Shown in pieces: positions 8 to 35,843 of a stretch of 42,082 bases of DNA. The stretch lies in the sequence record SRR2962707_5325. One strand, 5' to 3'. The translations under genes and the position numbers were made by a program. Every line of letters begins with the position of its first letter. The stretch's first letter is position 1. Under the pieces are notes generated by a model. That model was not told where the DNA came from and searched no databases. It saw only the letters and a program-made list of their open reading frames with translations.

Positions 8-340
8 ATGGGTAGAACAAATTTTCTGGGCGAATTCGAAGAGCTCATCTTAACCATGGTTTTGATCCTGGATGACAATGCCTATGGCAACACCGTAGTG
101 AAGTCGATCAAGGAACATCAAAAACGTGAAGTCAACCTCAGCTCGGTGCATATCACCCTCTACAGGTTGGAAGAAAAAGGACTATTGGAATCTTATATGG
201 GAGGTGCCACCAACGAACGCGGCGGGCGCAAAAAGCGCTATTTCAAAATCACTAACACGGGCAAGGCATTGCTTCAGGAGATGAAGGATGCGCGAACCAA
301 TCTTTGGAAACTCACTCCTCAACTCAATTTCTCTTCATGA
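8..340 (+). CDS. PadR family transcriptional regulator (PadR-1)
   Basis: 110 aa; LGEFEE, AYG, TLYRLEEKG and ERGGRKKRYFKIT winged-helix motifs; stop overlaps the permease start (ATGA, 337-340). Confidence 0.93.
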   Translation: MGRTNFLGEFEELILTMVLILDDNAYGNTVVKSIKEHQKREVNLSSVHITLYRLEEKGLLESYMGGATNERGGRKKRYFKITNTGKALLQEMKDARTNLWKLTPQLNFSS

Positions 341-3084: not shown

Positions 3085-5656
3085 AGCCCATCCTCCCAAA
3101 TTGCCAATCAAGTTTCTTCGATGGTATTGTAAAAAACCATTGCAGGAATCCATCATGGGTGATCTCGAAGAGCAATTCGATGAGGACCTTGAAGCCTTTG
3201 GCAAAAGAAAAGCCCGAAGAAGGTTTGCATGGAATGTGCTTCGTTTCTGTCGCCCTGGAATTATTAAAACTGTCAAAAACGGTTCACGATTAAATCATTA
3301 CAGCATGTTCAAGCACAATTTACTTATCACATTCAGAAGCTTTAAAAGACATAAAAGCACCTTTCTTATTAACCTGATTGGCCTTTCTTCCGGATTGGCG
3401 TGTGTGCTGTTTATCTACCTGTGGATTACAGATGAGGTTCAAAAGGACAAATTCCATAAAAACGCATCCCGGATCTATCAAGTCTATTCCAACCACCATG
3501 ATGCCAATGGAATATTTACCTGGAAAGGTGTTTCCGGACTTTTAGAAGACGAAATCAACGCGAACATTCCGGAGGTAAAGCGAGTAGTGGCTGCTACCGA
3601 TGCGCATGAATACACCCTGAGTACGGAGAATGATGCTTTCAAGGTCACAGGTAAATTTGGAAATGAACAGTTTTTAAATGTCTTCTCTTACCCTGTTTTG
3701 CATGGCAACCGCGAAACAGCCCTTTCCGATCAATCAGGAATTGTCATCACTGAGTCCCTTGCCAGGAAGCTCTTTAATACCACAGACGCGTTGGGCAAAG
3801 AGGTTGATTTTCACTTTTGGAGTTATGAAAAAACGCTGACGGTAACGGCTGTCCTGAAGGACCTTACATCGGCTACTTCTGATCAATTCGAGTTTATCAT
3901 GTCATGGGATTACTATCATGATGAACTCATCAGCTACAAACAATGGGGAAATTTCTACGCCCGAATCATTGTTGAGTTGAATGATCAGGCTGACAAGCCT
4001 GTGGTTGAAGAAAAGATTGACGCCATTTTTAAAGAGAAGCTCGAGGATGACAAGGTAGATTTGATCCTGACCAAATACGCTGATCAATATCTCTACAACC
4101 ATTATGAAAACGGGAAAGTCGCCGGCGGACGAATTGAATATGTGCGGCTCTTTTCCATTGTGGCATGCTTCATTTTGGTCATCGCATGCATCAATTTTAT
4201 TAATCTATCTACTGCAAAAGCCACACAAAGGACCAAAGAAATTGGTGTAAAAAAATCACTTGGTGCGACCAGAAAAGCCCTTGCCAGTCAATATTTCCTG
4301 GAGACTAGCTGTCTGGCCCTGATGGGATTCATTATGGCCATTGGTCTGGTTTATTTCTTTCTTCCGAGCTTCAATCAGCTGGCACAAAAAGAGCTCATTC
4401 TGACCGCCGACAGGTCGTTGATTTATGGCTCCTTGGCTATCCTGATCCTGGTCGGAATAATAGCCGGCACTTATCCGGCCCTGTACCTTTCCGGACTGAG
4501 TGTATTGACTTCTTTGAAATCGAATCTGAAAGAGAGCAAACATGGGTGGGGACGCAAAACATTGGTCGTTGCACAATTTTCCATTTCCATTGTGCTCATT
4601 GTTGCAACCGTGTTGGTACAGCAGCAGATGCGCTACGTGCAGTCCATGAACCTTGGATATGACAGGGACAACCTTGTCTATTTTGAACGAGAAGGGAACC
4701 TGTTGGAAAGCCACGATTCATTCATCGAGGAACTGAAAAAGGTTTCAGGAATCAAAAAGGTGACTGCTTCCGGATTCATGGTTGGGGGTATGAACTCAAC
4801 AGGAGGTGTGAAATGGGAAGGCAAAACGGAAGAGGAACGCGTACAATTCTGGGAAACCAAAGCAGATTTCGGATTGATTGATCTATTAGGAATAGAGGTG
4901 GTTTTGGGTAGGGACTTTGATCCTTCGTTTTCCAATGAATCCGAAAACATCATCTTCAATGAAACAGCTATCCGTGCCATGGGGATGGAAGATCCAATCG
5001 GAAAGACCATTGATCATTATTCCGGGAAGAAGAAGATCATCGGGGTAGTCAAAGATTTCAACATTGTATCTCTTCACAAAAAAGTGGAGCCTGCCCTCTT
5101 CCTCTACAATCCTGAACAAACACATTTCATCATGGCCAAAGTAGAAAAGGGAAAAGAGCTCGAGACCATCATGCAAATGGAATCCGTCTTCAAGGATTTT
5201 AATCCGAATTATCCCTTTGCGGTCAAGTTCGTGGATCAGGACTATCAGGCACTTTATGCTTCAGAAGAGCAAGTGGCAGATCTGTCTGGTTATTTCTCCG
5301 GACTGGCCATCCTTATCTCTTGCCTGGGGCTATTTGGGTTGGCATCTTTCACCACCGAAAGACGTGTCAAGGAAATCGGGATCAGAAAGGTATTGGGATC
5401 AGGGGTTTGGAACATCATATTCCTGTTGACGAGAGATTTCTCCAAAATGGTGGTCATTGCCATCTTCATCGGGATTCCGGTCAGCTATTTTCTAGGCAAA
5501 AAGTGGCTTGAAAATTATGCCTACAGCATTGATCTGAGTTGGTGGTACTTTGGTGGGGCTGCTTTGGTTGCTCTGCTCATTGCCTGGCTAACGGTGGGGA
5601 TTCAAACCATCAATGCCGCCACTGCCAATCCGGTAGAATCCTTGAAAGATGAGTAA
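3077..5656 (+). CDS. MacB/FtsX-type duplicated ABC permease with prefix domain (permease 2)
   Basis: 859 aa; same architecture, RTKEIGVKKSLGA and RVKEIGIRKVLG motifs; 8-bp overlap with permease 1. Confidence 0.93.
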   Translation: MNKAHPPKLPIKFLRWYCKKPLQESIMGDLEEQFDEDLEAFGKRKARRRFAWNVLRFCRPGIIKTVKNGSRLNHYSMFKHNLLITFRSFKRHKSTFLINLIGLSSGLACVLFIYLWITDEVQKDKFHKNASRIYQVYSNHHDANGIFTWKGVSGLLEDEINANIPEVKRVVAATDAHEYTLSTENDAFKVTGKFGNEQFLNVFSYPVLHGNRETALSDQSGIVITESLARKLFNTTDALGKEVDFHFWSYEKTLTVTAVLKDLTSATSDQFEFIMSWDYYHDELISYKQWGNFYARIIVELNDQADKPVVEEKIDAIFKEKLEDDKVDLILTKYADQYLYNHYENGKVAGGRIEYVRLFSIVACFILVIACINFINLSTAKATQRTKEIGVKKSLGATRKALASQYFLETSCLALMGFIMAIGLVYFFLPSFNQLAQKELILTADRSLIYGSLAILILVGIIAGTYPALYLSGLSVLTSLKSNLKESKHGWGRKTLVVAQFSISIVLIVATVLVQQQMRYVQSMNLGYDRDNLVYFEREGNLLESHDSFIEELKKVSGIKKVTASGFMVGGMNSTGGVKWEGKTEEERVQFWETKADFGLIDLLGIEVVLGRDFDPSFSNESENIIFNETAIRAMGMEDPIGKTIDHYSGKKKIIGVVKDFNIVSLHKKVEPALFLYNPEQTHFIMAKVEKGKELETIMQMESVFKDFNPNYPFAVKFVDQDYQALYASEEQVADLSGYFSGLAILISCLGLFGLASFTTERRVKEIGIRKVLGSGVWNIIFLLTRDFSKMVVIAIFIGIPVSYFLGKKWLENYAYSIDLSWWYFGGAALVALLIAWLTVGIQTINAATANPVESLKDE

Positions 5657-8248
5657 GCAGATCAGACCACCGAAAACATTTGCCCGCTTCTTTGAATGGT
5701 ACTGCAGGGACATACTCAAGGAGTCCATTATGGGCGATCTGGAGGAGCAGTTCGATGAAGACCTTGAGGTATTCGGAAAGCAAAAAGCCCGCAGAAGGTT
5801 CGCCTGGAATGTGATCCGGTTCTTTCGTCCCGGGATCGTCCGAAAATTGGAAGGAAGTGTCAAACTAAACAACTATGGTATGTTAAAAAGCTATTTGAAA
5901 ATTGCATTCAGGATATTCAAAAAAGAGAAAGGTTTTACCCTGATCAATGTATTCGGCCTGGCAATCGGTATTGCATGCAGCCTGTTTATCTACCTGTGGG
6001 TGCAGGATGAAAAGAGCTACAACGACCATCTGACAAATGGCGAAAATGTTTCGTATGTCATGAGCCGTGAAACGATTGCCAACGACAAGATTGTAACCTA
6101 CGAAACCTGCCCCTATAATCTAAAAGCCGTTTTGGAAGGGTACTCGGCCATTGAAAAGGTGGCCATCATGTCCTTTGGAAACTGGATGGCTTTTGAGAAA
6201 AATGAGTCCGTAATTGAATGGAGAGGAATTGATGCTTCTGAGGAGTTTTTTGACCTTTTTGAAATCAACTTTCTCGCTGGTAGTCCGGCTTCTATGGCGG
6301 ACAACCCACAAACAATGGCCATTTCAGAAACCTTTGCCAAAACCTTTTACGCGGAAGACTGGGAAAAAATGGAGCTGGTCGGCACCACCATCACCAATGA
6401 ATGGGGAGAATCCTTCCAGGTGGCAGGTATCTATGAAGACCTTCCTGAAAAATCCACGTTGGACATTGCCTTCGTCGTGCCATTCTCCCACCGACTCAAA
6501 AACAACGATTGGCTCAAGGATTGGGGGAACAACTCGAACCAAATGTATGTGAAGGTTGCGGATGGCGTATCCCTTTCAGATGCTGAGTTGAGCATTAAAA
6601 AAGCAGTCAGTAAAGTCCGGCCTGAGGAAGAGCCCACGAGAGAACTGTTCCTGCTTCCTTACAAGGATCAATATCTATACAATCGGTTTGATGAAGGTGA
6701 GATTGCCAGTGGGCGGATAGAATACATCCGACTGCTTTCCTTTGCAGCGATACTGGTGCTCCTTTTAGCCAGCATCAATTTCATGAACCTTTCTCCGCCA
6801 GATCTGCCAAAAGAGCACGTGAAACAGGCGTTAGAAAAACACTGGGAGCGATCCGACTCCAACTCAAAACCCAGTTTCTGACTGAATCCATTCTCATCAC
6901 GACGTTTGCGCTGCTTGTGGCAATGTTGATTGTTTACCTTGGCCTTGAGCAGTTCAATTATATCACCGATAAGCAGATTTCAATTAACACCCTAACAACC
7001 ATTAACCTATTATACCTGTTGGGTTTTGTTTTAGGACTTGGTTTCTTCTCCGGGCTGTATCCGGCCTTCTACCTTTCCTCCTTGAATGTCATTAGTTCCC
7101 TCAAAAACGGATTTAAGAACAACCGTCTTGATGTGCTATTTCGCAAAGGATTGGTGGTCTTTCAATTTCTCATCACAGTTACCATGATCACCGGGGCGGT
7201 GATCGTTTATCAGCAGGTGACATACATTCGATCTAAAAACATTGGCCTAGACCGATCGAATCTCATTCGCACATGGAAACATGAAATGGATGCCGATAAA
7301 GACTATGCTCTTTTCAAAGATGAGCTGATGAAACGACCCGGAATCGAAAGTGTCTGCATGGTCAACCAGACCTTGATTAACATTGGTAATTCCACTTCTT
7401 CTGTGCACTGGAACGGAGAGCCTGATGATGATTTTGAATTCTACATTTTAAAATCATCACCGGACTTCATCCCAACTACAAAAGTGCAGCTTAAAGAAGG
7501 CCGCAATTTTGATTGGAACCTTCAATCCGATACCGCCAACTATATCATTAATGAAACGGCTCAAAAACTTATGAAAATGGATGACCCCATTGGACAGGAT
7601 CTGACACTGTGGGGGAATAAGGGTAAAATCGTTGGTGTCATCGAGGATTTTCATATCGCTTCGCTTCATAAAGCAATTGAACCGCTCATTATTCATTACG
7701 ACCAGCCTGGTACCTGGATGATCATGGTGAGAACCAAGCCAGGAGAAGTAGATCAGGGATTGGCCACTTTGGAAGAAGTGTACCATCTCTGGAACCCCAA
7801 ACGTACATTCGATTACCAGTTTATGGATCAGGTATTCAATCAACAATACCGAAGTGAATTGCTCATCAAGGACCTTTCTTTTTATGCTACCATTGTTGCT
7901 ATCGCGATTTCTTGTCTTGGCCTCTTGGGCCTGGTGGCCTATACAGCCGAGCGCAAGACCAAAGAGATCGGCATTAGAAAAGTCTTCGGAGCGAACTTGC
8001 ATCACATTCTTGTCCTGCTATCTAAAGAGTTTGTATTTCTTATAGGAATCTCGTTACTTCTGGCTTTACCTCTTTCCTATTACCTGATGGATTTATGGCT
8101 GAAAGATTTCGCTTACCAGGTAAGTCTGAAATGGTGGCATTTCGCCGTTAGTATCTTGCTGATTCTCTTCATTTCTAACTCAATCATTTGTGGTCTTGCT
8201 ATCCGATCATCAAGAATCAACCCTGCAAACTCACTAAGGGACGAGTAG
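5649..8248 (+). pseudogene. MacB/FtsX-type permease with prefix domain (permease 3), frameshifted near 6794
   Basis: ORFs 5649-6881 and 6917-8248 join if one base is added between 6794 and 6795, restoring NFMNLS[T]ARSAKRARETGVRKTLGA and an 866-aa product like its paralogues; may be a sequencing error. Confidence 0.85.
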
Positions 8249-8277
8249 GTACATCTCAGCAAATAATTCAATCGAAC

Positions 8278-8334
8278 ACTACAATTAGGAATTAACCTGT
8301 TCTTTTTCTACTATTGCAATACTGCAATTAGGAA
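8278..8334 (+). promoter_or_regulatory. Putative PadR-2 operator pair and promoter
   Basis: Direct repeats ACTACAATTAGGAA (8278-8291) and ACTGCAATTAGGAA (8321-8334) flank a -7-like TACTATTG (8309-8316) and the palindrome TATTGCAATA (8312-8321). Confidence 0.6.
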
Positions 8335-8340
8335 AAAACT

Positions 8341-8685
8341 ATGGGAAAATTTCAATTAGGTGAATTTGAGGAGATCGTCATGTTGACGGTAGGTGTGCTC
8401 TTTGGTGATGCATACGGCGTTTCGATCAAGAAAGAAATTGAGGAACGGCTGAATCGAAAAGTGAGTGTAGGTGCACTTCAATCGGCACTTAAGCGGTTGG
8501 AAGACAAAGGCTACCTGACTTCCAAAGAAGGAGAATCCACCAGTGAAAGAGGCGGACGTCCTAAACTATATTTTACCCTTACTGCCTCCGGAAGAGATGC
8601 CATCGAGCATGCTCGGCAGGTTAGAAATCAACTCTACAACGAAATCCCAAAAGTCGCCCTGGATATCAAATTCAGTACCTCATGA
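8341..8685 (+). CDS. PadR family transcriptional regulator (PadR-2)
   Basis: 114 aa; LGEFEE, AYG, ALKRLEDKG, ERGGRPKLYFTLT; ATGA overlap with permease 4. Confidence 0.93.
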   Translation: MGKFQLGEFEEIVMLTVGVLFGDAYGVSIKKEIEERLNRKVSVGALQSALKRLEDKGYLTSKEGESTSERGGRPKLYFTLTASGRDAIEHARQVRNQLYNEIPKVALDIKFSTS

Positions 8686-17169: not shown

Positions 17170-19779
17170 TCACTCTGTCCTCAGCGCATCCACCGGATTA
17201 CCGAAAGAAGCTCTCAGCGAGTGATAACTCACAGTTATCAAGGCCACCAACAATCCACCCAAAATGGCAAATCCATACATCCACCAGGTTATGGTGATAC
17301 GGTATTCATAGTTTTCCAACCAGCCATTCAGGAAATAGGAAGCCAGTGGTACCGCGAGGACAGACGCGACAATGACCAAAATCGAAAAGTCTTTTGAAAG
17401 GAGTTTCCAAAGTGAAGTCACTGAAGCACCCAACACTTTTCGAATACCTACCTCTTTGGTTCGTTGCTCTGTGACAAAAGCTGATAAGCCAAACAGGCCG
17501 AGGCAGCTGATCAAAATGGCCAGACTGCTAAAGAAAGTGGCCAGGCTTCCGATTTTTTCTTCTGATCTGAATTTGGTTGCATATTCATTGTCCACAAACT
17601 CAAAGTTGAAGGGATGTCCTTGCAACACCTCCTCAAATTTCTCCTGAATCATGGGTAGTGCTTCGACGTACCTGGCATCAGGTTTAATTCGAATAAAAAG
17701 AAATGAGTTTGCCCATTCTGTTGGGAAAAGCATCAACGGTTTTGGTTCATCGTACGGTGATCCTTTGATCATGTCTTTGACCACACCGATGATGGTGAAA
17801 TTATTTCGTCCATTAAATTCCCCTCTTGATTGTATTTGTGTGCCAATTGGATCAATCAAGCCCATTTTTTCCACCGCAGATTCACTGACAATGATATTGG
17901 AGGATTCATTTGAGAATTCCCGTGAAAAATCTCTTCCTGCCACCAACTCCCATTGAGTGGTTTTTCCGTATTCTGGTGTTACATAAATTGTGTTGAATGT
18001 AACACGCACACGCTCACCTGTTTCCTTGAGGCTAAATCCGTCATTATTCCCAAGTGTATTCATCAACGGGTAGTTGGCGGTTGCAACCTCCTCCACTACT
18101 CCGGTCTGTTTCAGTCTTTCTCTCAAAACATCATATTTCTTATAATACTCTACTGATCTGCCCCTTACTACAATGAGATCTTCCTGGTTGTAGCCAACCG
18201 GGCGGAGCTTGGCATGTTGTATCTGATTGTACACGGTGATGGTTCCGATCATCAACAGAATGGAAATGGTAAATTGAAAAATCACCAGTCCTTGTCGCAA
18301 TCGCACACTGGCGATCCCCTGTTTCAAAGTGCCACTCAAGGCCTTTAATGGTCGGAAAGAAGAGAGGAAAAATGCTGGATAGCTCCCAGCGACCAGGGCA
18401 GAAACCAATGAAAACAGAATGCCTGATAGCCACATCGTTCCACTTGTCCATGGGATACTCAGGGTTTTGTCAGATATACCGTTGAACCATGGCAGTATTA
18501 ACCATACCACCAGGATTGATAGAATAAATGAGGCAAATGCATACAATGTGGACTCAGCAAGAAACTGATATACAAGCTGAGATCGGCGGGAACCAACAGC
18601 TTTTCGGATGCCTACTTCTTTAGATCGGTTCTGATAACGAGCTGTATTCAAGTTGATAAAATTGATGAATGCAAGAAGCAGAACAAATGCACCTATGATG
18701 CCATAAAGTTTCACGAACTGCATTCTGCTACTTGTAACCTTACTGCCATTCTCGAAAGAAGAATTCAGGTGCCAGTCCTTCATTGGAAGAACGAAGAGTT
18801 CCATCTGCCTTTCTGTCCCTTCCAAATGTCCTTTCATCATATTACTTATGATAGTAGAAGCTTTAGATGGGTCTATTCCCTTTTTCAGTTGGGCATAAAC
18901 TCGTATGTCATAATTATCCCAGACATATGGATTCTGCTCATTGTAAATAAGCTCCAAAGAAGCTATATAGGAAGCATTGGCAAATGTGGAATTGCCAGGC
19001 ACATCTTTGTAGACCCCTGTCACTTTTAGGTCAGCCTGCAGATTCAGATTAACCAGCTCTCCGACTGGATTTTTATCTCCAAAAAACTTCTTTGCCAACG
19101 ATTCTGAAAGAAGGATTCCACTTCGATCATTCAGCCCACGTATGTCACCTGCCAGCATTTCTAATGTTAACATTTCAGGAGCATCCGGCTGAAAGAAATA
19201 CCCGATTTGATCAAATGACTGCTTACCAACGGTCAGCAGTTGAGCCCGGGATCTGAAAAAGGTCATAACCACTTTGTCAAATACCGTTTCGTACTGCTCT
19301 TTTAACGTAACGCCGATCATACCGGTCAGCGATGTATTTACACCAATACTGCCATCTGCATCGACATCCTTTCGGGAGACCTGTACTATTTGGTCATAAT
19401 TTTTATGATATTGATTGAAAGTGAGTTCATCGTGAATCCACAATCCAATAAGAATAGTAACAACCATGCCCATCGCTAGTCCGCCGATATTGATAGTTGA
19501 AAAAACCTTATTCTTCAGCAGTATGCGATAGCTGATTCGGAAGTTGTGTTTGATCATGGTCATGATAATCGAGTTTGATTTGAAATATTTGAAAGCGAAA
19601 GGCCTGAGATAGTTGAATACCTGATAATAGTAATTGAGTCGGGCTTTTCTTAAGGAGTGTTTCTGTAAGGTCTGATAGAACTTTTCATCCAGATCACCAA
19701 GTACTTCTTCTGCCAGGCTTTCTTTCAGGAAAAACAACAAAAGCCTTTCTGCCAGTCTCGGTGGCTGAGGATTTTTCAT
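17170..19779 (-). CDS. MacB/FtsX-type duplicated ABC permease with prefix domain (permease 5)
   Basis: 869 aa; PPRLA...EEVLGDLDEKF prefix; RSKEVGIRKAVG and EQRTKEVGIRKVLGA; ends NPVDALRTE. Confidence 0.93.
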   Translation of the reverse strand: MKNPQPPRLAERLLLFFLKESLAEEVLGDLDEKFYQTLQKHSLRKARLNYYYQVFNYLRPFAFKYFKSNSIIMTMIKHNFRISYRILLKNKVFSTINIGGLAMGMVVTILIGLWIHDELTFNQYHKNYDQIVQVSRKDVDADGSIGVNTSLTGMIGVTLKEQYETVFDKVVMTFFRSRAQLLTVGKQSFDQIGYFFQPDAPEMLTLEMLAGDIRGLNDRSGILLSESLAKKFFGDKNPVGELVNLNLQADLKVTGVYKDVPGNSTFANASYIASLELIYNEQNPYVWDNYDIRVYAQLKKGIDPSKASTIISNMMKGHLEGTERQMELFVLPMKDWHLNSSFENGSKVTSSRMQFVKLYGIIGAFVLLLAFINFINLNTARYQNRSKEVGIRKAVGSRRSQLVYQFLAESTLYAFASFILSILVVWLILPWFNGISDKTLSIPWTSGTMWLSGILFSLVSALVAGSYPAFFLSSFRPLKALSGTLKQGIASVRLRQGLVIFQFTISILLMIGTITVYNQIQHAKLRPVGYNQEDLIVVRGRSVEYYKKYDVLRERLKQTGVVEEVATANYPLMNTLGNNDGFSLKETGERVRVTFNTIYVTPEYGKTTQWELVAGRDFSREFSNESSNIIVSESAVEKMGLIDPIGTQIQSRGEFNGRNNFTIIGVVKDMIKGSPYDEPKPLMLFPTEWANSFLFIRIKPDARYVEALPMIQEKFEEVLQGHPFNFEFVDNEYATKFRSEEKIGSLATFFSSLAILISCLGLFGLSAFVTEQRTKEVGIRKVLGASVTSLWKLLSKDFSILVIVASVLAVPLASYFLNGWLENYEYRITITWWMYGFAILGGLLVALITVSYHSLRASFGNPVDALRTE

Positions 19780-20123
19780 CCTAAAACGAAATTGAGTTTA
19801 CCCTCAGCAAATGCTGGAAATTGATTCCATAGGGACATTTTTAACGCCCTGGAAGTCTCCAAAGCATGCTGTCCGGCGGCAGTGATCACATAGATTCGCT
19901 TCCTCCTCCCTCCTCGTTCCGAGGAAGCCCCTCCCATTTCTGAGGTGAGAAATCCTTTTTCCTCAATGCGATTCAATGTAGAATGAACTGCACCAATGGA
20001 GACCGGTCTCTTTGTCTGCGATTCAAATTCCTCTGCGATCCTAAATGCATAGGCGTTTTCTCCCAGTATGCCTACCAGCAATAAAATCGTTTCTTCGAAA
20101 TCACCCAGTTTACTTTCCTTCAT
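19776..20123 (-). CDS. PadR family transcriptional regulator (PadR-3)
   Basis: 115 aa; LGDFEE, TLNRIEEKG, ERGGRRKRIYVIT; ATGA overlap with permease 5. Confidence 0.93.
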   Translation of the reverse strand: MKESKLGDFEETILLLVGILGENAYAFRIAEEFESQTKRPVSIGAVHSTLNRIEEKGFLTSEMGGASSERGGRRKRIYVITAAGQHALETSRALKMSLWNQFPAFAEGKLNFVLG

Positions 20124-20130
20124 GGTGTTG

Positions 20131-20241: not shown

Positions 20242-20300
20242 TACTTACAAAAGTGAAACTTTAGTATCTTCGCCTCAGTATAATACTGACAATTGTGTAA
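20242..20300 (+). promoter_or_regulatory. Putative PadR-4 operator pair and promoter
   Basis: Imperfect direct repeats TACTTACAAAAGTGAAA (20242-20258) and TACTGACAATTGTGTAA (20284-20300); -7-like TATCTTCG (20265-20272); palindrome TCAGTATAATACTGA (20275-20289). Confidence 0.55.
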
Positions 20301-20303
20301 AAT

Positions 20304-20642
20304 ATGGAGAATATCAAGCTTGGCAACCTAGAAGAACTTGTGCTCTTACTCGTGGGCGTACTTTATAATGAAGCCTATTCTGTGAACATTGTGCTGGAAT
20401 ATGAGAAGCAAACAGGCAAAAAAATTAATGTAAGCGCGATTCACAATGTGCTCTATCGGCTTGAGGAAAAAGGGTTTCTCGAGTCCAGACTTAGTGAATC
20501 TACTTCGGAGCGAGGTGGGAAAAGGAAAAGATTATTTTACCTGACTCCCTATGCCAGTCGAGCACTGGATGAGCTCGCCACGCTGCGGGAACGGCTCAGG
20601 CACCAAATTCCACAGCAAGCTATCCATTTTACAAAAGGCTAA
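20304..20642 (+). CDS. PadR family transcriptional regulator (PadR-4)
   Basis: 112 aa; LGNLEE, VLYRLEEKG, ERGGKRKRLFYLT; TAATG overlap with permease 6. Confidence 0.93.
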   Translation: MENIKLGNLEELVLLLVGVLYNEAYSVNIVLEYEKQTGKKINVSAIHNVLYRLEEKGFLESRLSESTSERGGKRKRLFYLTPYASRALDELATLRERLRHQIPQQAIHFTKG

Positions 20643-23236
20643 TGAACTTCAAAACCACACCACCAAAACTAGCCCTTCGAATCTTTCGATGGTACTGCAG
20701 GTCTGACAGACAAGAAGAACTGGAAGGAGACCTGGAGGAATTCTTCTTTCTCAGGTTGGAAAATGGCTCTCCCCTATGGAAAGCACGGATGTTTTTCTGG
20801 TGGAATGTGATTCGCTGCTATCGGACGTACTCAAAAAAGCAAACTCAAAATAACTCGACTATGTATCCTCTTATTAAATCTTACTTTAAACTGGCGTTGC
20901 GGCACTCCTGGAAAAACAAATGGTCTGTATTGATCAATGTAGTTGGGCTTGGGATGGCCCTGAGCATGTGTGTATTTATGTATACAGTGTATGCTTACAA
21001 TTGGGAATTTGACAGCTACTACGGTAATACCGATGATATTTATCGGCTTCATTCAATGACCTTTGAAAACGGAAATGAGCTTAGAAACGAAATAAGTCCA
21101 CTGGCGCTGGATGATAAGCTTAGAAATGAATTCAGCGGAATCGAAAAAGTATCCAGTTATGTAGACTATTCCTTAAGCGTGAGAAAGGGAACCGACTTTT
21201 TTACAGAGCGAGTCGCTTTCGTTTCTGATGAATTTTTTGAGATGTTCAACATGCCTCTATGGTATGGGTCATTTAAAGATTTTGAAACTCAACCCCTGGC
21301 ATTTATAGCCAAAAAGACGGCTACCAAATATTTTGGTAACGATGTGGCCATCGATAGACAACTGACTCTTTATGTCGGTGATAATAAGATTGAAGTAATC
21401 GTTGCTGGGGTGTTTGAGCGAATCCCGGAAAATAACAGCTTTGATGGAGAGATTTACCTAAACTTCCAGCATTATGCGAATGTTCGTGAATTCGATAAAA
21501 ATGATTGGAACAATCGTCGTTACGTTTCGCACTTTTTCCAGGCGTCAAAAAATAACATTCAGTCAATAGAATCCAATCTTCAGGATTTTATTAAGCTTCA
21601 GAATGAAGGTCACCCGGAAATGAAAGTAAGCCGATTTGAAGTGGTTCCTTTCAGAAGTCCTGTCATTCAGGCCGATAAAATCAACAGGCGCTACACCAAC
21701 ACCCGTCTACGACCTGCCGTAAAGCTCATTTTTACCACACTCATTTCCATGATTTTTCTGATTGCTTGTTTCAATCTGGCCAACACTTCCATGGCGATGA
21801 TCAGTAAGCGGTTGAAGGAAATCGGTATCCGAAAAACGCTGGGTTCAGAAAGCAAGCAAATCTTCATACAATTTCTATTTGAAATGGGAATTATCTGCGC
21901 CATGGCATTTGTCATTGCGGTATCAACCTCCAATATGACTTCAAGAGCCATCCTCGGACTTTTTGGTGGAGATTTTATTCTTCAGGATACGGACATTACA
22001 GGCGTACTATTATTTGTCGCCGCTTTCTTATTGGTAACAACTTTGGTGGCTGGATTTCTGCCTGCACTTTACGCTTTAAGATTTCAACCTGTGGCGATTC
22101 TAAGACGTTCGGTTAAGCTGAAAGGCGTGAGCTGGCTCAACAAGACACTTACGATTGCCCAATTCGCATTCTCTATAGCTGTGTTGACAGTTGGGATTAC
22201 ATTTTCTCAAAACAAGGAATATCTGGATCAATTAAGCCTGGGCTATCAGAAAGATGGAATCTTCGTGCTCAGTTTAAAAAGTAATGAACATTACGCCGAG
22301 CTAAAACAGCGAGTAGATCAATTGCCAAATGTGGAGACGGCAGGGACGCGCAATCACATCAGCCAACATAGCTCTTCCAGTGTCATGACAATCGACACTA
22401 CTTCACAGGAAGTCAGAACAAATTCTGTGGGCAAAGGGTACCTCGCTCTGATGGGCATTGATGTGGTAACCGGTAGAGGTTTTCTCGAGTCCAGCGAAGC
22501 AGATATGGACAATTCCATTCTTGTCGATCAGGAGTTTGCCAAAAGATTTTATGACGGAGAAAATCCGGTCAATCAGGTGGTGAAACTCGGAGACGAGCGA
22601 AAAACCATTGTTGGGGTCACTGCCAATATCATCGATGATGTATATGAGGATGCCAGACCAGAACCTACCATTTACACCTTGGCCAAAGAGAATCACATGT
22701 TGAAGCTTATCGTAAAAGCAAATGAAACCGATTTGGAAGCTGTCAATGAAGAATTGAAAACCATCTGGACCGAGCTGATCGATTTGCCATACAGTGGACA
22801 GCTTCAAGAAGATCTTGCACTTGGCTCAGCTGTCAACGATACTGACAATCTCCAAAAAATCTTCCTGGTCATGGCTATGCTTGGCGGATTCTTGAGCCTT
22901 GTAGGCATCTTCTCTTTGGCCAAACTCAATGTAGCCAGAAGGTTAAAAGAAATCAGCATTCGCAAAGTACTTGGTGCACGCTTTGATCAACTCATGGTAG
23001 GAACGAACAGATCCTTCTTGTTGGTTGTCATCCTGTCCCTATTCCTGGGTACTGCCTTAGGCTATTTCACAACATCGACAGTTTTGGACATGATTTACAA
23101 ATATCATGTTGCAGTTTCGGTATGGACAACACTTATCTGTGGCTTCCTGATTATACTGTTTTCCATCTCCATGATCACCATGGCTGTGTTTGTTCCGGCC
23201 AAAGCCAACCCGGTTGTCGGACTAAGAGATGAATAA
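20642..23236 (+). CDS. MacB/FtsX-type duplicated ABC permease with prefix domain (permease 6)
   Basis: 864 aa; PPKLA...EELEGDLEEF prefix; NTSMAMISKRLKEIGIRKTLG; ends NPVVGLRDE. Confidence 0.93.
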   Translation: MNFKTTPPKLALRIFRWYCRSDRQEELEGDLEEFFFLRLENGSPLWKARMFFWWNVIRCYRTYSKKQTQNNSTMYPLIKSYFKLALRHSWKNKWSVLINVVGLGMALSMCVFMYTVYAYNWEFDSYYGNTDDIYRLHSMTFENGNELRNEISPLALDDKLRNEFSGIEKVSSYVDYSLSVRKGTDFFTERVAFVSDEFFEMFNMPLWYGSFKDFETQPLAFIAKKTATKYFGNDVAIDRQLTLYVGDNKIEVIVAGVFERIPENNSFDGEIYLNFQHYANVREFDKNDWNNRRYVSHFFQASKNNIQSIESNLQDFIKLQNEGHPEMKVSRFEVVPFRSPVIQADKINRRYTNTRLRPAVKLIFTTLISMIFLIACFNLANTSMAMISKRLKEIGIRKTLGSESKQIFIQFLFEMGIICAMAFVIAVSTSNMTSRAILGLFGGDFILQDTDITGVLLFVAAFLLVTTLVAGFLPALYALRFQPVAILRRSVKLKGVSWLNKTLTIAQFAFSIAVLTVGITFSQNKEYLDQLSLGYQKDGIFVLSLKSNEHYAELKQRVDQLPNVETAGTRNHISQHSSSSVMTIDTTSQEVRTNSVGKGYLALMGIDVVTGRGFLESSEADMDNSILVDQEFAKRFYDGENPVNQVVKLGDERKTIVGVTANIIDDVYEDARPEPTIYTLAKENHMLKLIVKANETDLEAVNEELKTIWTELIDLPYSGQLQEDLALGSAVNDTDNLQKIFLVMAMLGGFLSLVGIFSLAKLNVARRLKEISIRKVLGARFDQLMVGTNRSFLLVVILSLFLGTALGYFTTSTVLDMIYKYHVAVSVWTTLICGFLIILFSISMITMAVFVPAKANPVVGLRDE

Positions 23237-23281: not shown

Positions 23282-23292
23282 TATAATTGTGT

Positions 23293-25848: not shown

Positions 25849-26364
25849 ATGATCCGAACAGCTGTATTACTTTTTGTGTTGTGTGCTGCTACTGTTTGTT
25901 TCGGTCAAGGTTTGACTGAAGTGCATGAGACCGACCATTACTCTATCAAATTTCCAAAGAACTGGACACTTTTTGAAGATGACGATTTAGGAGAAGCCAT
26001 TCACATGGTTGCACCCAAGTCAGGATTAGATGATACATTCACAGAGAATGTCAGTGTGATCATACAGGATCTTGCCGGCTACAACATCACCCTGGATGAT
26101 TATGTGAAACTGGCCGAAAAACAAATTACCGAAACTGTTGAAAACAGTAGCATCCTGAGCAGTCAGCGGTTTGTTGCAGGCAGCATTCAGTCTCATAAAA
26201 TCATCTACAAAGGGAAAATTCAGGGTATTGATCTGAAGCTGATACGCTACTATCAGATGAAAAATGAAAAGGCGTATATCCTGACCTACACTGCGCTAGA
26301 AAGTGATTTCGAAAAGCACAAACTATTTGGTCAGCAAATACTGAATAGCTTCCGGCTTAAATAA
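25849..26364 (+). CDS. Secreted PsbP/DcrB (Mog1/PsbP fold)-like protein A
   Basis: Signal peptide; YSIKFPKNW, FTENVSV, AYILTYTA and ILNSFRLK patterns. Confidence 0.7.
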   Translation: MIRTAVLLFVLCAATVCFGQGLTEVHETDHYSIKFPKNWTLFEDDDLGEAIHMVAPKSGLDDTFTENVSVIIQDLAGYNITLDDYVKLAEKQITETVENSSILSSQRFVAGSIQSHKIIYKGKIQGIDLKLIRYYQMKNEKAYILTYTALESDFEKHKLFGQQILNSFRLK

Positions 26365-26366
26365 TT

Positions 26367-26870
26367 ATGGCAATAAGAAACCTCGCTTCGATAGTCCTCC
26401 TCCTGGCTGTTCTTGGTTCATGGAGTCAGGATTTACAGACCCACACAGGAGATAAATATTCCATCCAATACCCTGCAACCTGGCAGCTGGACAAGGCGGG
26501 ACAACCGGGAGTATCATTCGTGATTATGGCACCCATGAATACTCAGGGTGATCAATTTAGGGAAAATGTAAACTTGCTGAAGCAGGACATTTCCAGCTAT
26601 GGAATGGACCTAAAAGGTTTTGTGACCCTTTCAGAAAATCAGATTCGTTCGATGATCACCGATGGTGAAATCATCGAAAGCAAACCTCAAGACGGCTACC
26701 ACAAGATGGTCTACAAGGGAACCATGGGTCAATTCAAGCTGAAGTTTATCCAATACTACTGGGTCGAGAAAGGAATCGCTTACGTACTTACTTTCACAGC
26801 AGAGCAGGCCGAGTTTGACAAATACCAATCCATCGGCCTCCAAATCATGGACAGCTTCGAACTAAAGTAA
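26367..26870 (+). CDS. Secreted PsbP/DcrB-like protein B (tandem paralogue)
   Basis: YSIQYPATW, FRENVNL, AYVLTFTA and IMDSFELK, colinear with the upstream gene. Confidence 0.7.
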   Translation: MAIRNLASIVLLLAVLGSWSQDLQTHTGDKYSIQYPATWQLDKAGQPGVSFVIMAPMNTQGDQFRENVNLLKQDISSYGMDLKGFVTLSENQIRSMITDGEIIESKPQDGYHKMVYKGTMGQFKLKFIQYYWVEKGIAYVLTFTAEQAEFDKYQSIGLQIMDSFELK

Positions 26871-32925: not shown

Positions 32926-33275
32926 CAAATCTCCCCCTCACCCTTTGGATCATGGCCCTGCTGTATATCGCTGCAGGCGTGAATCACTTCATCATGCCAC
33001 GTTTTTATATGAGCATCATTCCGCCTTTTCTACCTTTCCCTAAACTGATAAATCAGCTAAGTGGAGTGGCGGAGATTGTATTAGGGGTAGGCCTGCTGAT
33101 CCCTGATTATACCTCATTGGCTGCCTGGGGAGTGATCGCTTTGCTCATAGCCGTGTTCCCTGCCAACATCTATCATTTCATGAAAGGATGGCGAAAAAAG
33201 AAAATGGTTTGGGTGCTTGCTTTGCGTCTTCCATTACAATTTCTTTTGATCTGGTGGGCATATTTATACACCTGA
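32922..33275 (+). CDS. DoxX/MauE-like membrane protein
   Basis: AGVNHF.MP.FY..IIP, SGVAEI, AVFPANIY and RLPLQ motifs; four hydrophobic segments. Confidence 0.8.
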   Translation: MTNLPLTLWIMALLYIAAGVNHFIMPRFYMSIIPPFLPFPKLINQLSGVAEIVLGVGLLIPDYTSLAAWGVIALLIAVFPANIYHFMKGWRKKKMVWVLALRLPLQFLLIWWAYLYT

Positions 33276-33433
33276 AGTGCAACCTTTCTTCGATTTTGGA
33301 ATCAATTCTTTATATCACTTTGTTATAAAGTGATCAGCAAAGAGTTTATTATAACCACTTTTGGACAATCAGAATAGCTCTCAAAGTGCTGTTGTTCAGT
33401 TGATTAGGTGATGGCAAGCTCTTTACTGCCAAT

Positions 33434-33441
33434 TATTTTTG
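33434..33441 (+). promoter_or_regulatory. Bacteroidota -7 promoter element for permease 7
   Basis: TATTTTTG 20 nt upstream of ATG 33462. Confidence 0.6.
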
Positions 33442-33461
33442 AACCCCTAACTCAAAGGACT

Positions 33462-35843
33462 ATGCTGCGCAATTTTTTCAAAATCACGTTCAGGAATTTC
33501 CTGAAAAACAAGTCTTACGTGTTCATCAACATTGTGGGACTTGGTTTGTCACTGGCCTGCTGCATTGTGGGCTACCTTAACTGGAATTATGCCGCTGAAT
33601 ACGATCAAAATCATGTCAATCATGAGCGTATTTACAAAGTACAACTAAACAAAGATGTCCAGGGAAGAAATGTTCCTTATGGGATCACCCCGCTTCCGCT
33701 TGGCGAGGCTTTCAAGGATAAAGTCTCGGGACTCTCGCACTCTGCCAGGTATGTAAGCACCGGATTGGTCATGAAAAAAGACCTTAAAGTGTTCAATCAA
33801 ACGATCGCTTTCGCTGACGAGGATTTTTTCGAAATGTTCACTTTTCCATTTAAATATGGAAATAAGGAGGTCTTTCTGGATCCCAGCAAGATCATACTCA
33901 GTGAATATGTTGCCGAAAGCTACTTTGGTAAAGACTTTGACCCGACAGGTGAAATAATCAAAGTCATCACGGAGGATGGAAACGAAATTCCGATGACTGT
34001 GGGCGGTGTATTGGAAAAGATCCCTCAGAACTCCTCTCTTCTTTTTGGTGCAGTTACCACTTTTGACAACTACCTGAAAATCCGTGAGCTTGAAGGAAAT
34101 GATTGGACACGATTTGTCTCTGCTACATTCGTGATGACCGAGGGTGAGAATTATCCTCAAAACCTATTGGATGACATTAATGCCAATTATGTCGAAATCC
34201 AGAATGCTGCGAGAGAAGATTTCAAGGTTGCCAGCTATTACCTGGTACAGCTAACTAACCTCGGTAGCGTTGCGGAGACCTTCTATTCTAACTGGCTAAG
34301 TCAGCCTCCTCCACCTCCGGCTGTTATTGTGCCTATGATCATGGCCATACTCATGCTTTTCATCGCCTGTTTCAACTTCACGAACACATCCATTGCGATT
34401 TCAAGTAAACGATTGAAAGAAATTGGGATCAGAAAAGTAATGGGAAGTGATCGTGGGCAACTCATTTTCCAGTTTATGGGGGAGAACCTGCTTCTATCTT
34501 TATTGGCTATGCTGGTTGCTCTTGGAATCGCCATCTACCTTGTCCCCGCGTACAGCGCCATGTGGGACTTTATTGACCTAAAGCTTGATCTCGCTGCAGA
34601 CCCTGAAATTTATCTTTTCCTCGGGGGTCTTTTGGTTGCCACTTCTTTGGTGGCAGGAGGCTATCCGTCTCTTTACATCAGCGCCTATCAACCGGTCAAT
34701 ATCCTTAGAGGAAGTCTTTCTCTGGGTGGCACCAATTGGTTTTCAAAAATCCTGCTTGGCTTGCAATACATGCTCACCATTATTGCCCTGATCTCAGCAC
34801 TCGCTTTTACCAACAATGCCGAATATCAAAACAACATGGACATGGGTTTTGAGAAGAACAACATTTTGGCTGTACGTGTCGAAAGCAAATCTGAATACGG
34901 CAAGTACAGTACGCTTGTTAGCCAGATGCCGGAAATCCAACAAATGACAGGCACCACCCATCACATTGGCTGGTGGAACTATGGCAGAACGCTCAAGGCC
35001 GGGGAAGCCGAGGTAGAAGCCATGATGATGGACTTTAGTCTGGACTATCAGGAAATCATGAATCTTCAGCTTGTTGATGGTCGATATTTTGATGAAGATC
35101 TCTATGATTTTGATCGGGAAAACTCCATCATTTTCAATGAGTCCATGGTGAAGGAATTTGGTTGGGATGAGCCACTGGGGAAAGTCGTACAAATCGATGA
35201 CAGCACGAGACTTACCGTGGTAGGGGTGCTTGAGGATTTCTACATGGATGGGTTCTTCAATCCTGTATCTCCTTCTGCATTCAGATTAGCAGATAAGGAG
35301 TCCATGAACTTTCTGATCGTTAAAAGTGAAAGTGACCATCTAAGTTTCAAAGAAAAAATGGAAGATAAATGGTACGAAATAGCACCCAACACACCATTTA
35401 ACGGCCAGTATATGGATGAATCACTCGCCGGAATGGAAATAGTGAATAAAAACATTAGTGCCATGTTCGAATTTTTAGGACTATTGGCATTGGTGCTCTC
35501 CTCTATTGGCTTATACACTCTTGTATCACTCAATATTATCAAGCGAGTCAAAGAAATTGGCGTAAGAAAAGTATTGGGAGCAACCATCCAACAAATCCTG
35601 GTAATGATGAACAAGCAGTTTTTCTGGTTGCTTTTGATTTTTGCTTTGATTGGAGCAGCATTAAGTTATGTGATAGTTGACATCTTGCTAATGCCAAGCA
35701 TTTTTGCAGTTTTCAAAGCAACAGATATTCTAACTATGTTGATTCCACTTCTATTCCTTCTAGTGGTCGCCATTTCGATTGCTTCATTTCGTATCTTCCG
35801 TACAGCTATGAAAAATCCTGTGGAATCATTGCGATACGAGTAA
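33462..35843 (+). CDS. MacB/FtsX-type duplicated ABC permease without prefix domain (permease 7)
   Basis: Begins MLRNFFKITFRN; NTSIAISSKRLKEIGIRKVMG; ends NPVESLRYE; start moved from 33408 because a promoter element lies between the two starts. Confidence 0.92.
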   Translation: MLRNFFKITFRNFLKNKSYVFINIVGLGLSLACCIVGYLNWNYAAEYDQNHVNHERIYKVQLNKDVQGRNVPYGITPLPLGEAFKDKVSGLSHSARYVSTGLVMKKDLKVFNQTIAFADEDFFEMFTFPFKYGNKEVFLDPSKIILSEYVAESYFGKDFDPTGEIIKVITEDGNEIPMTVGGVLEKIPQNSSLLFGAVTTFDNYLKIRELEGNDWTRFVSATFVMTEGENYPQNLLDDINANYVEIQNAAREDFKVASYYLVQLTNLGSVAETFYSNWLSQPPPPPAVIVPMIMAILMLFIACFNFTNTSIAISSKRLKEIGIRKVMGSDRGQLIFQFMGENLLLSLLAMLVALGIAIYLVPAYSAMWDFIDLKLDLAADPEIYLFLGGLLVATSLVAGGYPSLYISAYQPVNILRGSLSLGGTNWFSKILLGLQYMLTIIALISALAFTNNAEYQNNMDMGFEKNNILAVRVESKSEYGKYSTLVSQMPEIQQMTGTTHHIGWWNYGRTLKAGEAEVEAMMMDFSLDYQEIMNLQLVDGRYFDEDLYDFDRENSIIFNESMVKEFGWDEPLGKVVQIDDSTRLTVVGVLEDFYMDGFFNPVSPSAFRLADKESMNFLIVKSESDHLSFKEKMEDKWYEIAPNTPFNGQYMDESLAGMEIVNKNISAMFEFLGLLALVLSSIGLYTLVSLNIIKRVKEIGVRKVLGATIQQILVMMNKQFFWLLLIFALIGAALSYVIVDILLMPSIFAVFKATDILTMLIPLLFLLVVAISIASFRIFRTAMKNPVESLRYE

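What the first reader, a model, noticed from the sequence alone, without database searches (positions are those of the whole stretch)
8..35843. Candidate modular permease-PadR signalling system: the prefix domain tracks padR exactly
Seen: seven MacB/FtsX-type permeases, four padR genes and no ABC ATPase. All six permeases in padR operons carry a ~75-aa N-terminal prefix (PP...GDL.E.F...A...RP-like) ahead of the first TM segment, and each padR is translationally coupled to its first permease. Permease 7 has neither prefix nor padR, although permease 6, which shares its NTS.A..SKRLKEIG signature, has both. Known: PadR linked to orphan duplicated permeases is described bioinformatically (ADOP, TIGR03434 with TIGR03433), but I know of no established mechanism. 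Inference: the prefix is a cytoplasmic PadR-docking module, so each permease acts as a transporter-sensor that sequesters or releases its repressor and borrows an ATPase encoded elsewhere.
Basis: partly seen in the sequence, partly recalled or inferred. Interest (0 to 1): 0.8.

Follow-up and report, generated by a model that had tools for sequence, protein, structure and literature searches.

The report
PadR repressors paired with prefix-tagged permeases
Four small PadR repressor genes each sit directly in front of large MacB-type membrane permeases that carry a short cytoplasmic N-terminal tag; this is a real and clean example of a pairing already catalogued and already proposed in print to be a membrane-to-gene signalling pair, but contact between the two proteins is still unproven.

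Summary
The window has seven duplicated MacB_PCD/FtsX permease genes (one broken by a frameshift), four PadR genes and no ABC ATPase. All six permeases in PadR operons carry the curated NCBIfam domain NF038404 (perm_prefix_2). The seventh has neither prefix nor PadR.

Elsewhere the rule is strong but not exact. In four Bacteroidota genomes, 95 of 101 prefix-permease arrays start behind a PadR gene. None of 149 prefix-less relatives does.

Three new points support a matched partner:
- Prefix-bearing cores are not one clade (AU p 2e-74).
- Prefixes that share a PadR stay alike (62-70% identity) while their cores have drifted (29-41%).
- In the window the synonymous sites of those prefixes are saturated, so recent gene conversion does not explain the likeness.

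This scan had filed the same architecture at least eight times on other DNA. The Pfam HAAS model does not detect this prefix, and profile comparison is weak, so homology to HAAS is unproven.

No PadR-prefix binding test could be run because the complex predictor never accepted the job. Verdict: a new member of a known kind, of modest interest.

The parts
8..340 (+). padR1, 110 aa small PadR-type winged-helix repressor; heads the operon padR1-P1-P2-P3. Its upstream region lies outside the window.
   Evidence: PF03551 39.2 bits; ATGA overlap with P1
337..3084 (+). P1, duplicated MacB_PCD/FtsX permease; prefix at about residues 1-73 (337-555)
   Evidence: Pfam; NF038404 53-58 bits
3077..5656 (+). 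P2, duplicated permease with prefix (3077-3295); overlaps P1 by 8 nt
   Evidence: AlphaFold2 model of residues 1-88 with helices 8-17, 20-41, 43-57 and 75-87
5649..8248 (+). P3, duplicated permease with prefix (5649-5870), interrupted by one frameshift near 6795 and so read as two ORFs (5649-6881 and 6917-8248). Either a pseudogene or a sequencing error.
8341..8685 (+). padR2, 114 aa
   Evidence: PF03551 47.7 bits; ATGA overlap with P4
8682..11291 (+). P4, duplicated permease with prefix (8682-8900)
   Evidence: sequence relatives among solved MacB structures 5lil, 5nik, 5gko
17170..19779 (-). P5, duplicated permease with prefix (19561-19779)
19776..20123 (-). padR3, 115 aa, divergent from padR4
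   Evidence: PF03551 34.6 bits; 4-nt overlap with P5
20128..20192 (.). Inverted repeat: 23-nt arms, 87% complementary, 19 nt apart, ending 5 nt from the padR3 start codon. A candidate operator or 5' leader hairpin; its function is not shown.
   Evidence: core 10+19+10 repeat reached by 0 of 100 shuffles
20304..20642 (+). padR4, 112 aa, the most divergent PadR
   Evidence: PF03551 23.5 bits, below the cut-off of 27; aligns along its whole length with the others
20642..23236 (+). P6, duplicated permease with prefix (20642-20860)
   Evidence: TAATG overlap with padR4
33408..35843 (+). P7, duplicated permease of the same family with no prefix and no PadR. It follows a DoxX-like ORF after a 132-nt gap.

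Best explanation
Each module is a one-step membrane-to-DNA signalling pair of the published HAAS-PadR type, joined to a MacB-class transporter.

The ~70-residue prefix is a cytoplasmic three-helix domain at the N-terminus of a duplicated MacB_PCD/FtsX permease. It occupies the position where MacB itself carries its ATPase domain.

Inferred: the prefix binds the small PadR repressor that is co-translated from the overlapping upstream gene. When the permease changes state, through substrate in its periplasmic domains or through cycling with an ATPase, the hold on PadR changes and transcription of the padR-permease operon changes.

All permeases of one operon carry prefixes matched to that operon's PadR, so the prefix acts as an address tag.

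The ATPase is supplied in trans by one of several stand-alone LolD/MacB-class ATPase genes.

Shown here: the domain architecture, the gene overlaps, the co-occurrence, the independence from core phylogeny, and the group-specific conservation of the prefix under protein-level selection. Inferred: physical binding, its direction (sequestration or release), the signal, and which ATPase is used.
For: (1) Architecture. 6 of 6 prefixes match NF038404. The model has three helices followed by TM1, mean pLDDT 71. In the best 150 of 2796 matching clusters the domain always starts within the first 30 residues.

(2) Co-occurrence.
- G003-G005: 39 prefix matches form 29 arrays, and 25 are headed by PadR.
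- G001: 82 matches form 72 arrays, and 70 are headed by PadR.
- Total: 95 of 101.
- Conversely, 70 of 73 strong PadR-subfamily matches in G001 are followed by a prefix.
- 0 of 149 prefix-less relatives have a PadR within 900 nt upstream.

(3) Not one inheritance event. On a 53-row core tree the prefix state changes at least 15 times. The AU test rejects a single prefix clade, with delta lnL 1566 and p 2e-74.

(4) Tag specificity.
- 10 same-operon pairs: prefix 70.5% against core 38.9% identity, with prefix higher in 10 of 10.
- 243 cross-operon pairs: 33.2% against 34.8%.
- In an 18-permease array with three PadR-headed groups, prefix identity is 68.3% within groups and 45.7% between them. Cores are 41.3% and 41.1%. 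Label shuffles reach the observed value 0 of 2000 times for the prefix and 707 of 2000 for the core.

(5) Selection rather than conversion in this window. P1-P3 prefixes are 61.7% identical in protein, but third-base identity at conserved residues is 15/51 (29%). In their cores it is 36/117 (31%).

(6) Independent parallels. 25 of 25 Pfam-HAAS membrane proteins sampled in Bacteroidia have a PadR directly upstream. 27 of 30 perm_prefix_1 loci in Acidobacteriota hold a PadR match on the same short locus (adjacency was not scored).

(7) The published hypothesis names this architecture.

(8) ATPases in trans are plausible. 7 of 10 LolD-like ATPase genes scoring 190 bits or more in G003 and G005 have no FtsX domain within 20 kb. 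One heads a long permease array.
Against: There is no direct evidence of binding.

Homology to HAAS is unproven.
- Pfam HAAS (PF22564) and HAAS_TM (PF08006) gave no match on the six prefixes at E up to 10.
- They gave none in five genomes that hold 185 prefix matches.
- hhalign of prefix_2 against a HAAS alignment gave probability 13-16% and P 0.002, over 25 columns only.
- Fold searches were unspecific: Foldseek found nothing at E <= 0.001, and VIA-align gave a best Z of 6.9, with a DUF1048 structure at rank 42 and Z 5.0.

Five of 101 arrays have an intact prefix and no PadR nearby. Their upstream genes are QueA, TetR, OsmC and an unknown gene in G004, plus one array in G001.

PadR similarity correlates with core similarity about as well as with prefix similarity. 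In G001 r is 0.217 against 0.239, both reached by 0 of 2000 permutations. With 12 modules r is 0.36 against 0.34.

No shared operator motif was found upstream of the PadR genes.

In the G002 array the within-group prefixes show raised synonymous identity (48.5% against 34.0% in cores), so some conversion or younger ancestry contributes there.
Confidence: 0.6

Rival explanations
1. PadR is an ordinary ligand-sensing autorepressor, like drug- or phenolic-acid-binding PadR proteins. It controls an efflux or extraction transporter. The prefix serves the transporter itself, for example by docking a trans-encoded ATPase, in assembly or in gating, and never touches PadR. On this view the two travel together only because this transporter subtype is regulated that way.
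For: The prefix sits where MacB has its ATPase domain, so a role in recruiting an ATPase is natural. No ATPase is encoded nearby. PadR similarity tracks core similarity as well as prefix similarity. Five prefix arrays work without a nearby PadR. That small PadR proteins bind ligands directly is recalled, not from a call.
Against: The 149 prefix-less relatives sampled must also use ATPases, yet they lack the prefix; one of their arrays lies directly behind a LolD-like ATPase gene. A shared ATPase partner predicts one common prefix type per genome. Instead, prefix types are specific to PadR groups inside one array. Other, unrelated membrane proteins with short helical N-terminal domains show the same strict PadR adjacency.
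Confidence: 0.2
2. Stoichiometric titration without sensing. The prefix simply sequesters newly made PadR at the membrane, giving positive feedback or bistable expression of the operon. No signal passes from the periplasmic domains.
For: Overlapping stop and start codons favour co-synthesis of PadR and the first permease. Operons with several prefix-bearing permeases per PadR would out-titrate the repressor: three here, and up to nine in G002.
Against: Nothing here separates this from the best explanation. Keeping two large periplasmic domains on every copy suggests the transporter part matters, though that is an argument and not a test.
Confidence: 0.12
3. The likeness of prefixes within an operon is a by-product of tandem duplication and gene conversion at the 5' ends, and the association with PadR is hitch-hiking of neighbouring DNA.
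For: PadR and the first prefix are adjacent, so they are rarely separated by recombination. Within-group prefixes in the G002 array show raised synonymous identity, 48.5% against 34.0% in cores.
Against: In this window synonymous sites of the P1-P3 prefixes are as scrambled as those of the cores (29% against 31%) while the protein stays 62% identical. The second and third prefixes of an operon lie 2.6-5 kb from padR. A single prefix clade is rejected, so the pairing has survived many rearrangements.
Confidence: 0.06

Closest known systems
HAAS-PadR-like wHTH dyad (Ravi, Anantharaman, Aravind, Gennaro and co-workers, mSystems 2024, PMC11237479; passages read)
   Same: A short helical domain at the N-terminus of a multi-TM protein, always next to a stand-alone small PadR gene. 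The paper explicitly lists fusions to FtsX-like TM domains with MacB/PCD domains. It proposes that the helical domain holds PadR and releases or reconfigures it on a membrane signal, as an alternative to two-component systems.
   Different: The paper's example is acidobacterial, which corresponds to the perm_prefix_1 type. The Pfam HAAS model does not detect the prefix here, and profile comparison is weak. The conserved turn after helix 3 reads R-P, not the G-x-P described for HAAS. I could not see the paper's supplementary tables (closed), so I cannot say whether Bacteroidota prefix_2 proteins are among its HAAS set.
NCBIfam NF038404 'permease prefix domain 2-containing transporter'
   Same: All six prefixes score over the curated cut-off. 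The same model finds 8 to 82 copies per genome in five Bacteroidota genomes.
   Different: None: this is the family. The model names a domain and assigns no function. A full-text search for 'permease prefix domain' found 0 papers.
ADOP family permease (TIGR03434) with acidobacterial PadR (TIGR03433) and perm_prefix_1 (NF038403)
   Same: The same overall design: PadR, then a helical prefix, then a duplicated MacB_PCD/FtsX permease with no adjacent ATPase, expanded to dozens of copies per genome.
   Different: Scores lie far below the family cut-offs: 245-280 against 622 bits for the permeases, and 22-37 against 102 bits for the PadRs. The prefix belongs to a different sequence family; hhalign of prefix_2 against prefix_1 gave P 0.007 over 23 columns.
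MacB / LolCDE-type (type VII) ABC transporters; solved MacB 5lil, 5nik, 5gko
   Same: MacB_PCD periplasmic domain plus a four-helix FtsX domain, here present twice in one chain, which mimics the MacB dimer.
   Different: No fused or adjacent ATPase. The N-terminal cytoplasmic position is taken by the prefix instead.
BceAB-BceS transporter-sensor modules of Firmicutes (recalled, from no call)
   Same: An FtsX-family ABC permease acts as the sensor for a transcription-controlling partner that cannot sense by itself.
   Different: There the partner is a histidine kinase and the ATPase is encoded in the operon. Here the partner would be a one-component repressor. This is a resemblance in logic only.
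Listeria LftR (PadR) with LftS (DUF1048, placed in the HAAS superfamily by Ravi et al.); Front Microbiol 2015, PMC4517056 (passages read)
   Same: A PadR repressor of a transporter operon, encoded in one operon with a small helical partner. The two are genetically linked.
   Different: LftS is a separate soluble protein. The paper states that how it acts is not clear, and that repression of lieAB did not need it.

Membership tests
NCBIfam NF038404 perm_prefix_2 | N-terminal domain match at or over the curated 35-bit cut-off | tested here: met
   6 of 6 PadR-operon permeases score 44.3-73.6 bits; P7 has no match
MacB/FtsX-type duplicated permease | Two MacB_PCD and two FtsX domains in one chain | tested here: met
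   Two stretches of PF12704 and two of PF02687 in each of P1, P2, P4, P5, P6 and P7. P3 has them across its two halves, except that the FtsX domain at the frameshift got no match
MacB/FtsX-type ABC transporter | A cognate ABC ATPase | tested here: not met
   None in the window. No whole genome is held for this window, so the genome could not be searched. Related genomes have stand-alone LolD-like ATPases
ADOP family, TIGR03434 | Score at or over the curated cut-off of 622.3 bits | tested here: not met
   244.6-280.2 bits for the six intact permeases
Acidobacterial PadR, TIGR03433 | Score at or over the curated cut-off of 101.8 bits | tested here: not met
   22.4-37.0 bits for the four PadRs
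PadR family, PF03551 | Score at or over the gathering cut-off of 27 bits | tested here: met
   padR1 39.2, padR2 47.7, padR3 34.6 bits. padR4 scores 23.5, below the cut-off, but is 41% identical to padR2 over its whole length
HAAS domain (Pfam PF22564; Ravi et al. 2024) | Sequence match to the HAAS model or profile | tested here: not met
   No PF22564 match on the six prefixes at E up to 10. 0 matches in five genomes holding 185 prefix_2 matches. hhalign probability 13-16%. Caution: the same Pfam model also misses 9 of 10 perm_prefix_1 domains, with the tenth at E 0.19. Perm_prefix_1 is the acidobacterial prefix type, as is the FtsX-fusion example that the paper gives
HAAS domain | Three consecutive helices, with a conserved kink or turn motif (G-x-P) at the third | tested here: inconclusive
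   The model has helices 8-17, 20-41 and 43-57. A near-invariant Pro follows helix 3 as R-P, not G-x-P. Fold search was unspecific; a DUF1048 structure, 2o4t, appears at rank 42 with Z 5.0 and rmsd 6.6
HAAS-PadR dyad | The domain lies N-terminal to a multi-TM protein and is always encoded next to a stand-alone PadR | tested here: met
   4 of 4 operons here. 95 of 101 arrays in four genomes. The domain is N-terminal in all of the best 150 library matches
HAAS-PadR dyad | Physical interaction of the helical domain with PadR | not tested
   The complex-prediction job was never accepted. This has never been shown experimentally for any permease fusion, as far as my searches found

The most novel reading that the evidence does not exclude
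The prefix is an address tag. Each PadR recognises only the prefix type of its own operon, and selection keeps every permease of that operon matched to it while the transporter cores diverge freely and are reshuffled. A single genome would then run dozens of insulated, one-step membrane-to-promoter channels (about 70 in G001). That would be a paralogous expansion of orthogonal pairs comparable to two-component or ECF sigma/anti-sigma systems, with an ABC-type permease as the input device.
Probability: 0.4. Interest if true: 0.6.

Novelty: new member of a known kind. Interest (0 to 1): 0.3.

Why it matters
These permeases are among the most expanded gene families in soil and aquatic Bacteroidota, with 8 to 82 prefix-bearing copies in the five genomes searched. 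No substrate or mechanism is known for any of them.

If the prefix really docks PadR, they would form a large class of transporter-coupled one-component sensors. The group-specific prefixes would offer natural orthogonal pairs with which to study how partner specificity evolves.

For this window itself the result is mainly annotation: four PadR/prefix-permease operons, one broken copy and one untagged copy.

Tried and rejected
**Complex prediction, PadR2 with the P4 prefix.** At the machine gave no usable answer. It never ran, so there is no result either way.

**Whole genome of the window.** Not held.

**Fold searches with the prefix model.** Foldseek against the PDB found nothing at E <= 0.001. 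VIA-align wide gave a best Z of 6.9, to generic helical bundles. The prefix profile against PDB sequences gave one chance-level hit at E 0.37.

**Shared operator.** Among 13 PadR upstream regions only padR3 (0 of 100 shuffles) and L042 (3 of 100) have a notable inverted repeat. No common motif emerged.

The window has 29 matches with up to 2 mismatches against 21.5 expected, and none lies in the padR upstream regions 8249-8340 or 20124-20303.

**Mantel tests and mutual information.**
- PadR~prefix correlation is real but no stronger than PadR~core.
- Mean of the top 20 corrected mutual-information values is 0.220, against a maximum of 0.186 in 30 partner shuffles.
- The top column pairs do not cluster, and shared duplication history is not controlled. 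I draw no interface from it.

**First core tree.** It contained one row, L035 1-2379, that is cut at its 5' end and was wrongly scored as prefix-less. It was dropped.

**Supplements of Ravi et al.** Closed.

**Rejected reading: membership in ADOP / TIGR03433.** Scores fall far below the cut-offs.
Full report
**What is there**

The window looks like Bacteroidota: it has a SusC/SusD pair at 35957-40529, and every related locus found is from that phylum or close to it. Its own genome is not held. The best related permease in the genome collection is only 45% identical.

Between 8 and 23236 lie four operons:
- padR1-P1-P2-P3
- padR2-P4
- padR3-P5, on the minus strand
- padR4-P6

A seventh permease, P7, lies at 33408-35843.

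Each permease has two MacB_PCD and two FtsX matches in one chain. P3 is one gene broken by a single frameshift near 6795. No ORF has an ABC ATPase domain, and no Walker A or LSGGQ motif occurs in any frame. Every gene junction inside the operons is a stop/start overlap of 1, 4 or 8 nt.

**The prefix**

The six N-termini align with ten invariant columns. All six match NCBIfam NF038404, 'permease prefix domain 2-containing transporter', over its cut-off. P7 does not. Pfam has no family for this domain.

A profile of the six prefixes finds 2796 clusters in the 1.84-billion-protein library. In the best 150 the domain always starts within the first 30 residues. Those proteins are either about 860-900 aa long or are shorter proteins, which I take to be fragments.

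An AlphaFold2 model (46-row alignment, pLDDT 71) gives three helices at 8-17, 20-41 and 43-57, then a basic linker and TM1. P2 residues 74-470 align to positions 250-635 of the MacB model. The prefix therefore takes the place of MacB's N-terminal cytoplasmic ATPase domain, which puts it in the cytoplasm. That step is an inference from MacB topology.

**Does the prefix track PadR beyond this window?**

- G003, G004 and G005: 39 prefix matches over the cut-off form 29 arrays. One sub-cut-off fragment containing a stop was dropped.
  - 24 array heads lie 78-141 nt behind a PadR match.
  - One lies 542 nt behind, with an unassigned 125-aa ORF between.
  - Four, all in G004, have no PadR. QueA, an unknown ORF, a TetR gene and an OsmC gene lie upstream instead.
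- G001: 82 matches form 72 arrays.
  - 70 heads lie 6-452 nt behind a PadR-subfamily match.
  - Ten further permeases follow another prefix permease.
  - One array has its PadR after the permease, and one has none.
- Together, 95 of 101 arrays are headed by PadR.
- In the other direction, 70 of 73 strong PadR-subfamily matches in G001 precede a prefix.
- In G003-G005 the PadR genes without a prefix partner are seven high-scoring canonical PadRs and three weak hits.
- In the 74 loci fetched with the permease core, 149 prefix-less permeases have their N-terminus in view, and none has a PadR within 900 nt upstream.
- Prefix-less copies are the majority. They form long tandem arrays.

**Is this one inherited clade?**

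No. On a FastTree tree of 148 cores the prefix state changes at least 20 times. Shuffled labels give a mean of 25.9 and a minimum of 22.

On a 53-row IQ-TREE quick tree it changes at least 15 times. This tree holds all 28 prefix-bearing rows, 24 randomly drawn prefix-less rows and P7. The AU test rejects a single prefix-bearing clade, with delta lnL 1566 and p 2e-74.

The branches are long and the models simple, so the exact counts are soft. The rejection itself is not marginal.

**The most informative result: the prefix follows the PadR group, and the core does not**

- Ten same-operon pairs, here and in six loci: prefix identity 70.5%, core identity 38.9%, with prefix higher in 10 of 10.
- 243 cross-operon pairs: 33.2% and 34.8%.
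- An 18-permease array in G002 is split by three PadR genes into groups of 5, 9 and 4.
  - Prefix identity is 68.3% within groups and 45.7% between them.
  - Core identity is 41.3% and 41.1%.
  - Shuffled group labels reach the observed contrast 0 of 2000 times for the prefix and 707 of 2000 for the core.
- In this window the P1-P3 prefixes are 61.7% identical in protein. Third bases at conserved residues agree at only 15 of 51 sites, the same as in the cores (36 of 117). So old duplicates are being held alike by selection on the protein, not by recent conversion.
- In the G002 array some excess synonymous identity remains, 48.5% against 34.0%.

**Weaker tests**

PadR similarity correlates with prefix similarity (r 0.34 for 12 modules; 0.239 for 69 modules of G001). 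It correlates about equally with core similarity (0.36; 0.217). Prefix and core hardly correlate with each other (0.05; 0.08).

Column covariation exceeds shuffled pairings but shows no clear interface.

**Relation to HAAS**

Ravi et al. 2024 define the HAAS domain. They state that it always occurs next to a stand-alone PadR. They list fusions to FtsX-like TM domains with MacB/PCD domains. They propose that a conformational change in HAAS releases or reconfigures PadR (passages).

Pfam now carries HAAS (PF22564) and HAAS_TM (PF08006).

- PF22564 finds nothing in five genomes that hold 185 prefix_2 matches.
- It does find one protein of about 540-850 aa in 26 of 61 Bacteroidia genomes, and 25 of 25 fetched loci have a PadR directly upstream.
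- hhalign comparisons are all weak:

| Comparison | P value |
|---|---|
| prefix_2 vs this HAAS set | 0.002 |
| prefix_2 vs acidobacterial prefix_1 | 0.007 |
| prefix_1 vs this HAAS set | 0.01 |

- All three alignments cover the acidic E-E-[IL]-x-x-[DH]-[LI]-E stretch that is helix 2 in the prefix_2 model.
- Pfam HAAS also misses 9 of 10 prefix_1 domains.

So these tools cannot settle homology. The prefix works like a HAAS domain in architecture and context, but I do not file it as a proven member.

**ATPase**

In G003 and G005, 7 of the 10 LolD-like ATPase genes scoring 190 bits or more have no FtsX domain within 20 kb. One lies next to a classical ~400-aa FtsX pair. One lies next to a 900-aa duplicated permease.

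One, at G003:C51:82900, heads a same-strand run of seven prefix-less duplicated permeases. A PadR/prefix permease follows that run. An ATPase supplied in trans, possibly shared by many permeases, is therefore plausible. It was not shown for this window.

**Literature**

- 'permease prefix domain': 0 papers.
- PadR + FtsX + permease: 8 papers hold all three terms and 6 were listed; only Ravi et al. is relevant among those.
- 'duplicated orphan permease': 2 papers, seen as listings only.
- The Listeria LftR/LftS paper (passages) gives the only genetic link I found between a PadR and a HAAS-superfamily partner, and it leaves the mechanism open.
- BceAB-BceS as an analogy is recalled, not from a call.

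**Earlier notes of this scan**

At least eight earlier notes describe the same architecture on other DNA and file it under the HAAS-PadR dyad. I had reached the paper independently. One note's idea of a matched repressor and tag is borne out by my tests. Its sigma-54 promoter is not seen here.

**Verdict**

Binding is untested. This is a new member of a known kind. The operon-specific prefix under protein-level selection is the one piece of evidence worth carrying forward.

Noticed in passing
window 5649-8248: P3 is split into two ORFs by a single frameshift near 6795; the homologous reading continues in another frame. Either a young pseudogene inside an otherwise intact operon, or a sequencing error.
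   Followed up: partly
window 20128-20192: Inverted repeat with 23-nt arms 19 nt apart, ending 5 nt from the padR3 start codon in the divergent padR3/padR4 spacer. It could be an operator pair or a leader hairpin that covers the ribosome-binding site. No counterpart was found upstream of padR2 or padR4.
   Followed up: partly
window 30148-33275: A 925-aa ORF in a stretch of only 31% G+C (the window's 2-kb bins otherwise run 39-48%). It is rich in N, S, I and K, repeat-like, has hydrophobic C-terminal segments, and matches no Pfam, NCBIfam or PADLOC family. The protein atlas places it nearest pentapeptide-repeat membrane proteins of Bacteroidota (score 0.95, a lead only). It overlaps a 117-aa DoxX-like ORF by 4 nt and lies just upstream of P7.
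   Followed up: partly
window 23287-24137: An Xre-like antitoxin (Xre-like HTH plus MbcA/ParS C-terminal domain) and a RES-domain toxin, overlapping by 1 nt, directly after P6.
   Followed up: no
window 11726-13349 (-): An HTH_3 (XRE-type) protein of 272 aa and an Rce1-like CAAX intramembrane protease, overlapping by 8 nt. The HTH gives weak PADLOC hits to RmrA, HTH_VI and capH models.
   Followed up: no
G003:C51:82900-164000 (related genome, not the window): One LolD-like ATPase gene is followed on the same strand by a run of seven prefix-less duplicated permeases, with one PadR/prefix permease module next at about 106.7 kb. Further duplicated permeases continue on the contig, 17 in about 80 kb. 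One ATPase may serve many permeases.
   Followed up: partly
loci L080-L104 (Bacteroidia genomes): A single conserved protein of about 540-850 aa with a Pfam HAAS domain at its N-terminus occurs once per genome in 26 of 61 genomes. A PadR gene lies directly upstream in 25 of 25 fetched loci, a clean positive control for the dyad.
   Followed up: partly
G001:C1:5320137-5323048 and G004 loci L075-L078: Exceptions to the rule. One module has the gene order reversed (permease, then PadR). Four intact prefix permeases have no PadR nearby, and two of their prefixes resemble prefixes of other modules, so control in trans is conceivable.
   Followed up: partly
window 25849-26870: Two adjacent PsbP-like proteins (171 and 167 aa) directly after a glutaminyl-tRNA synthetase gene, in what looks like a non-photosynthetic bacterium.
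   Followed up: no
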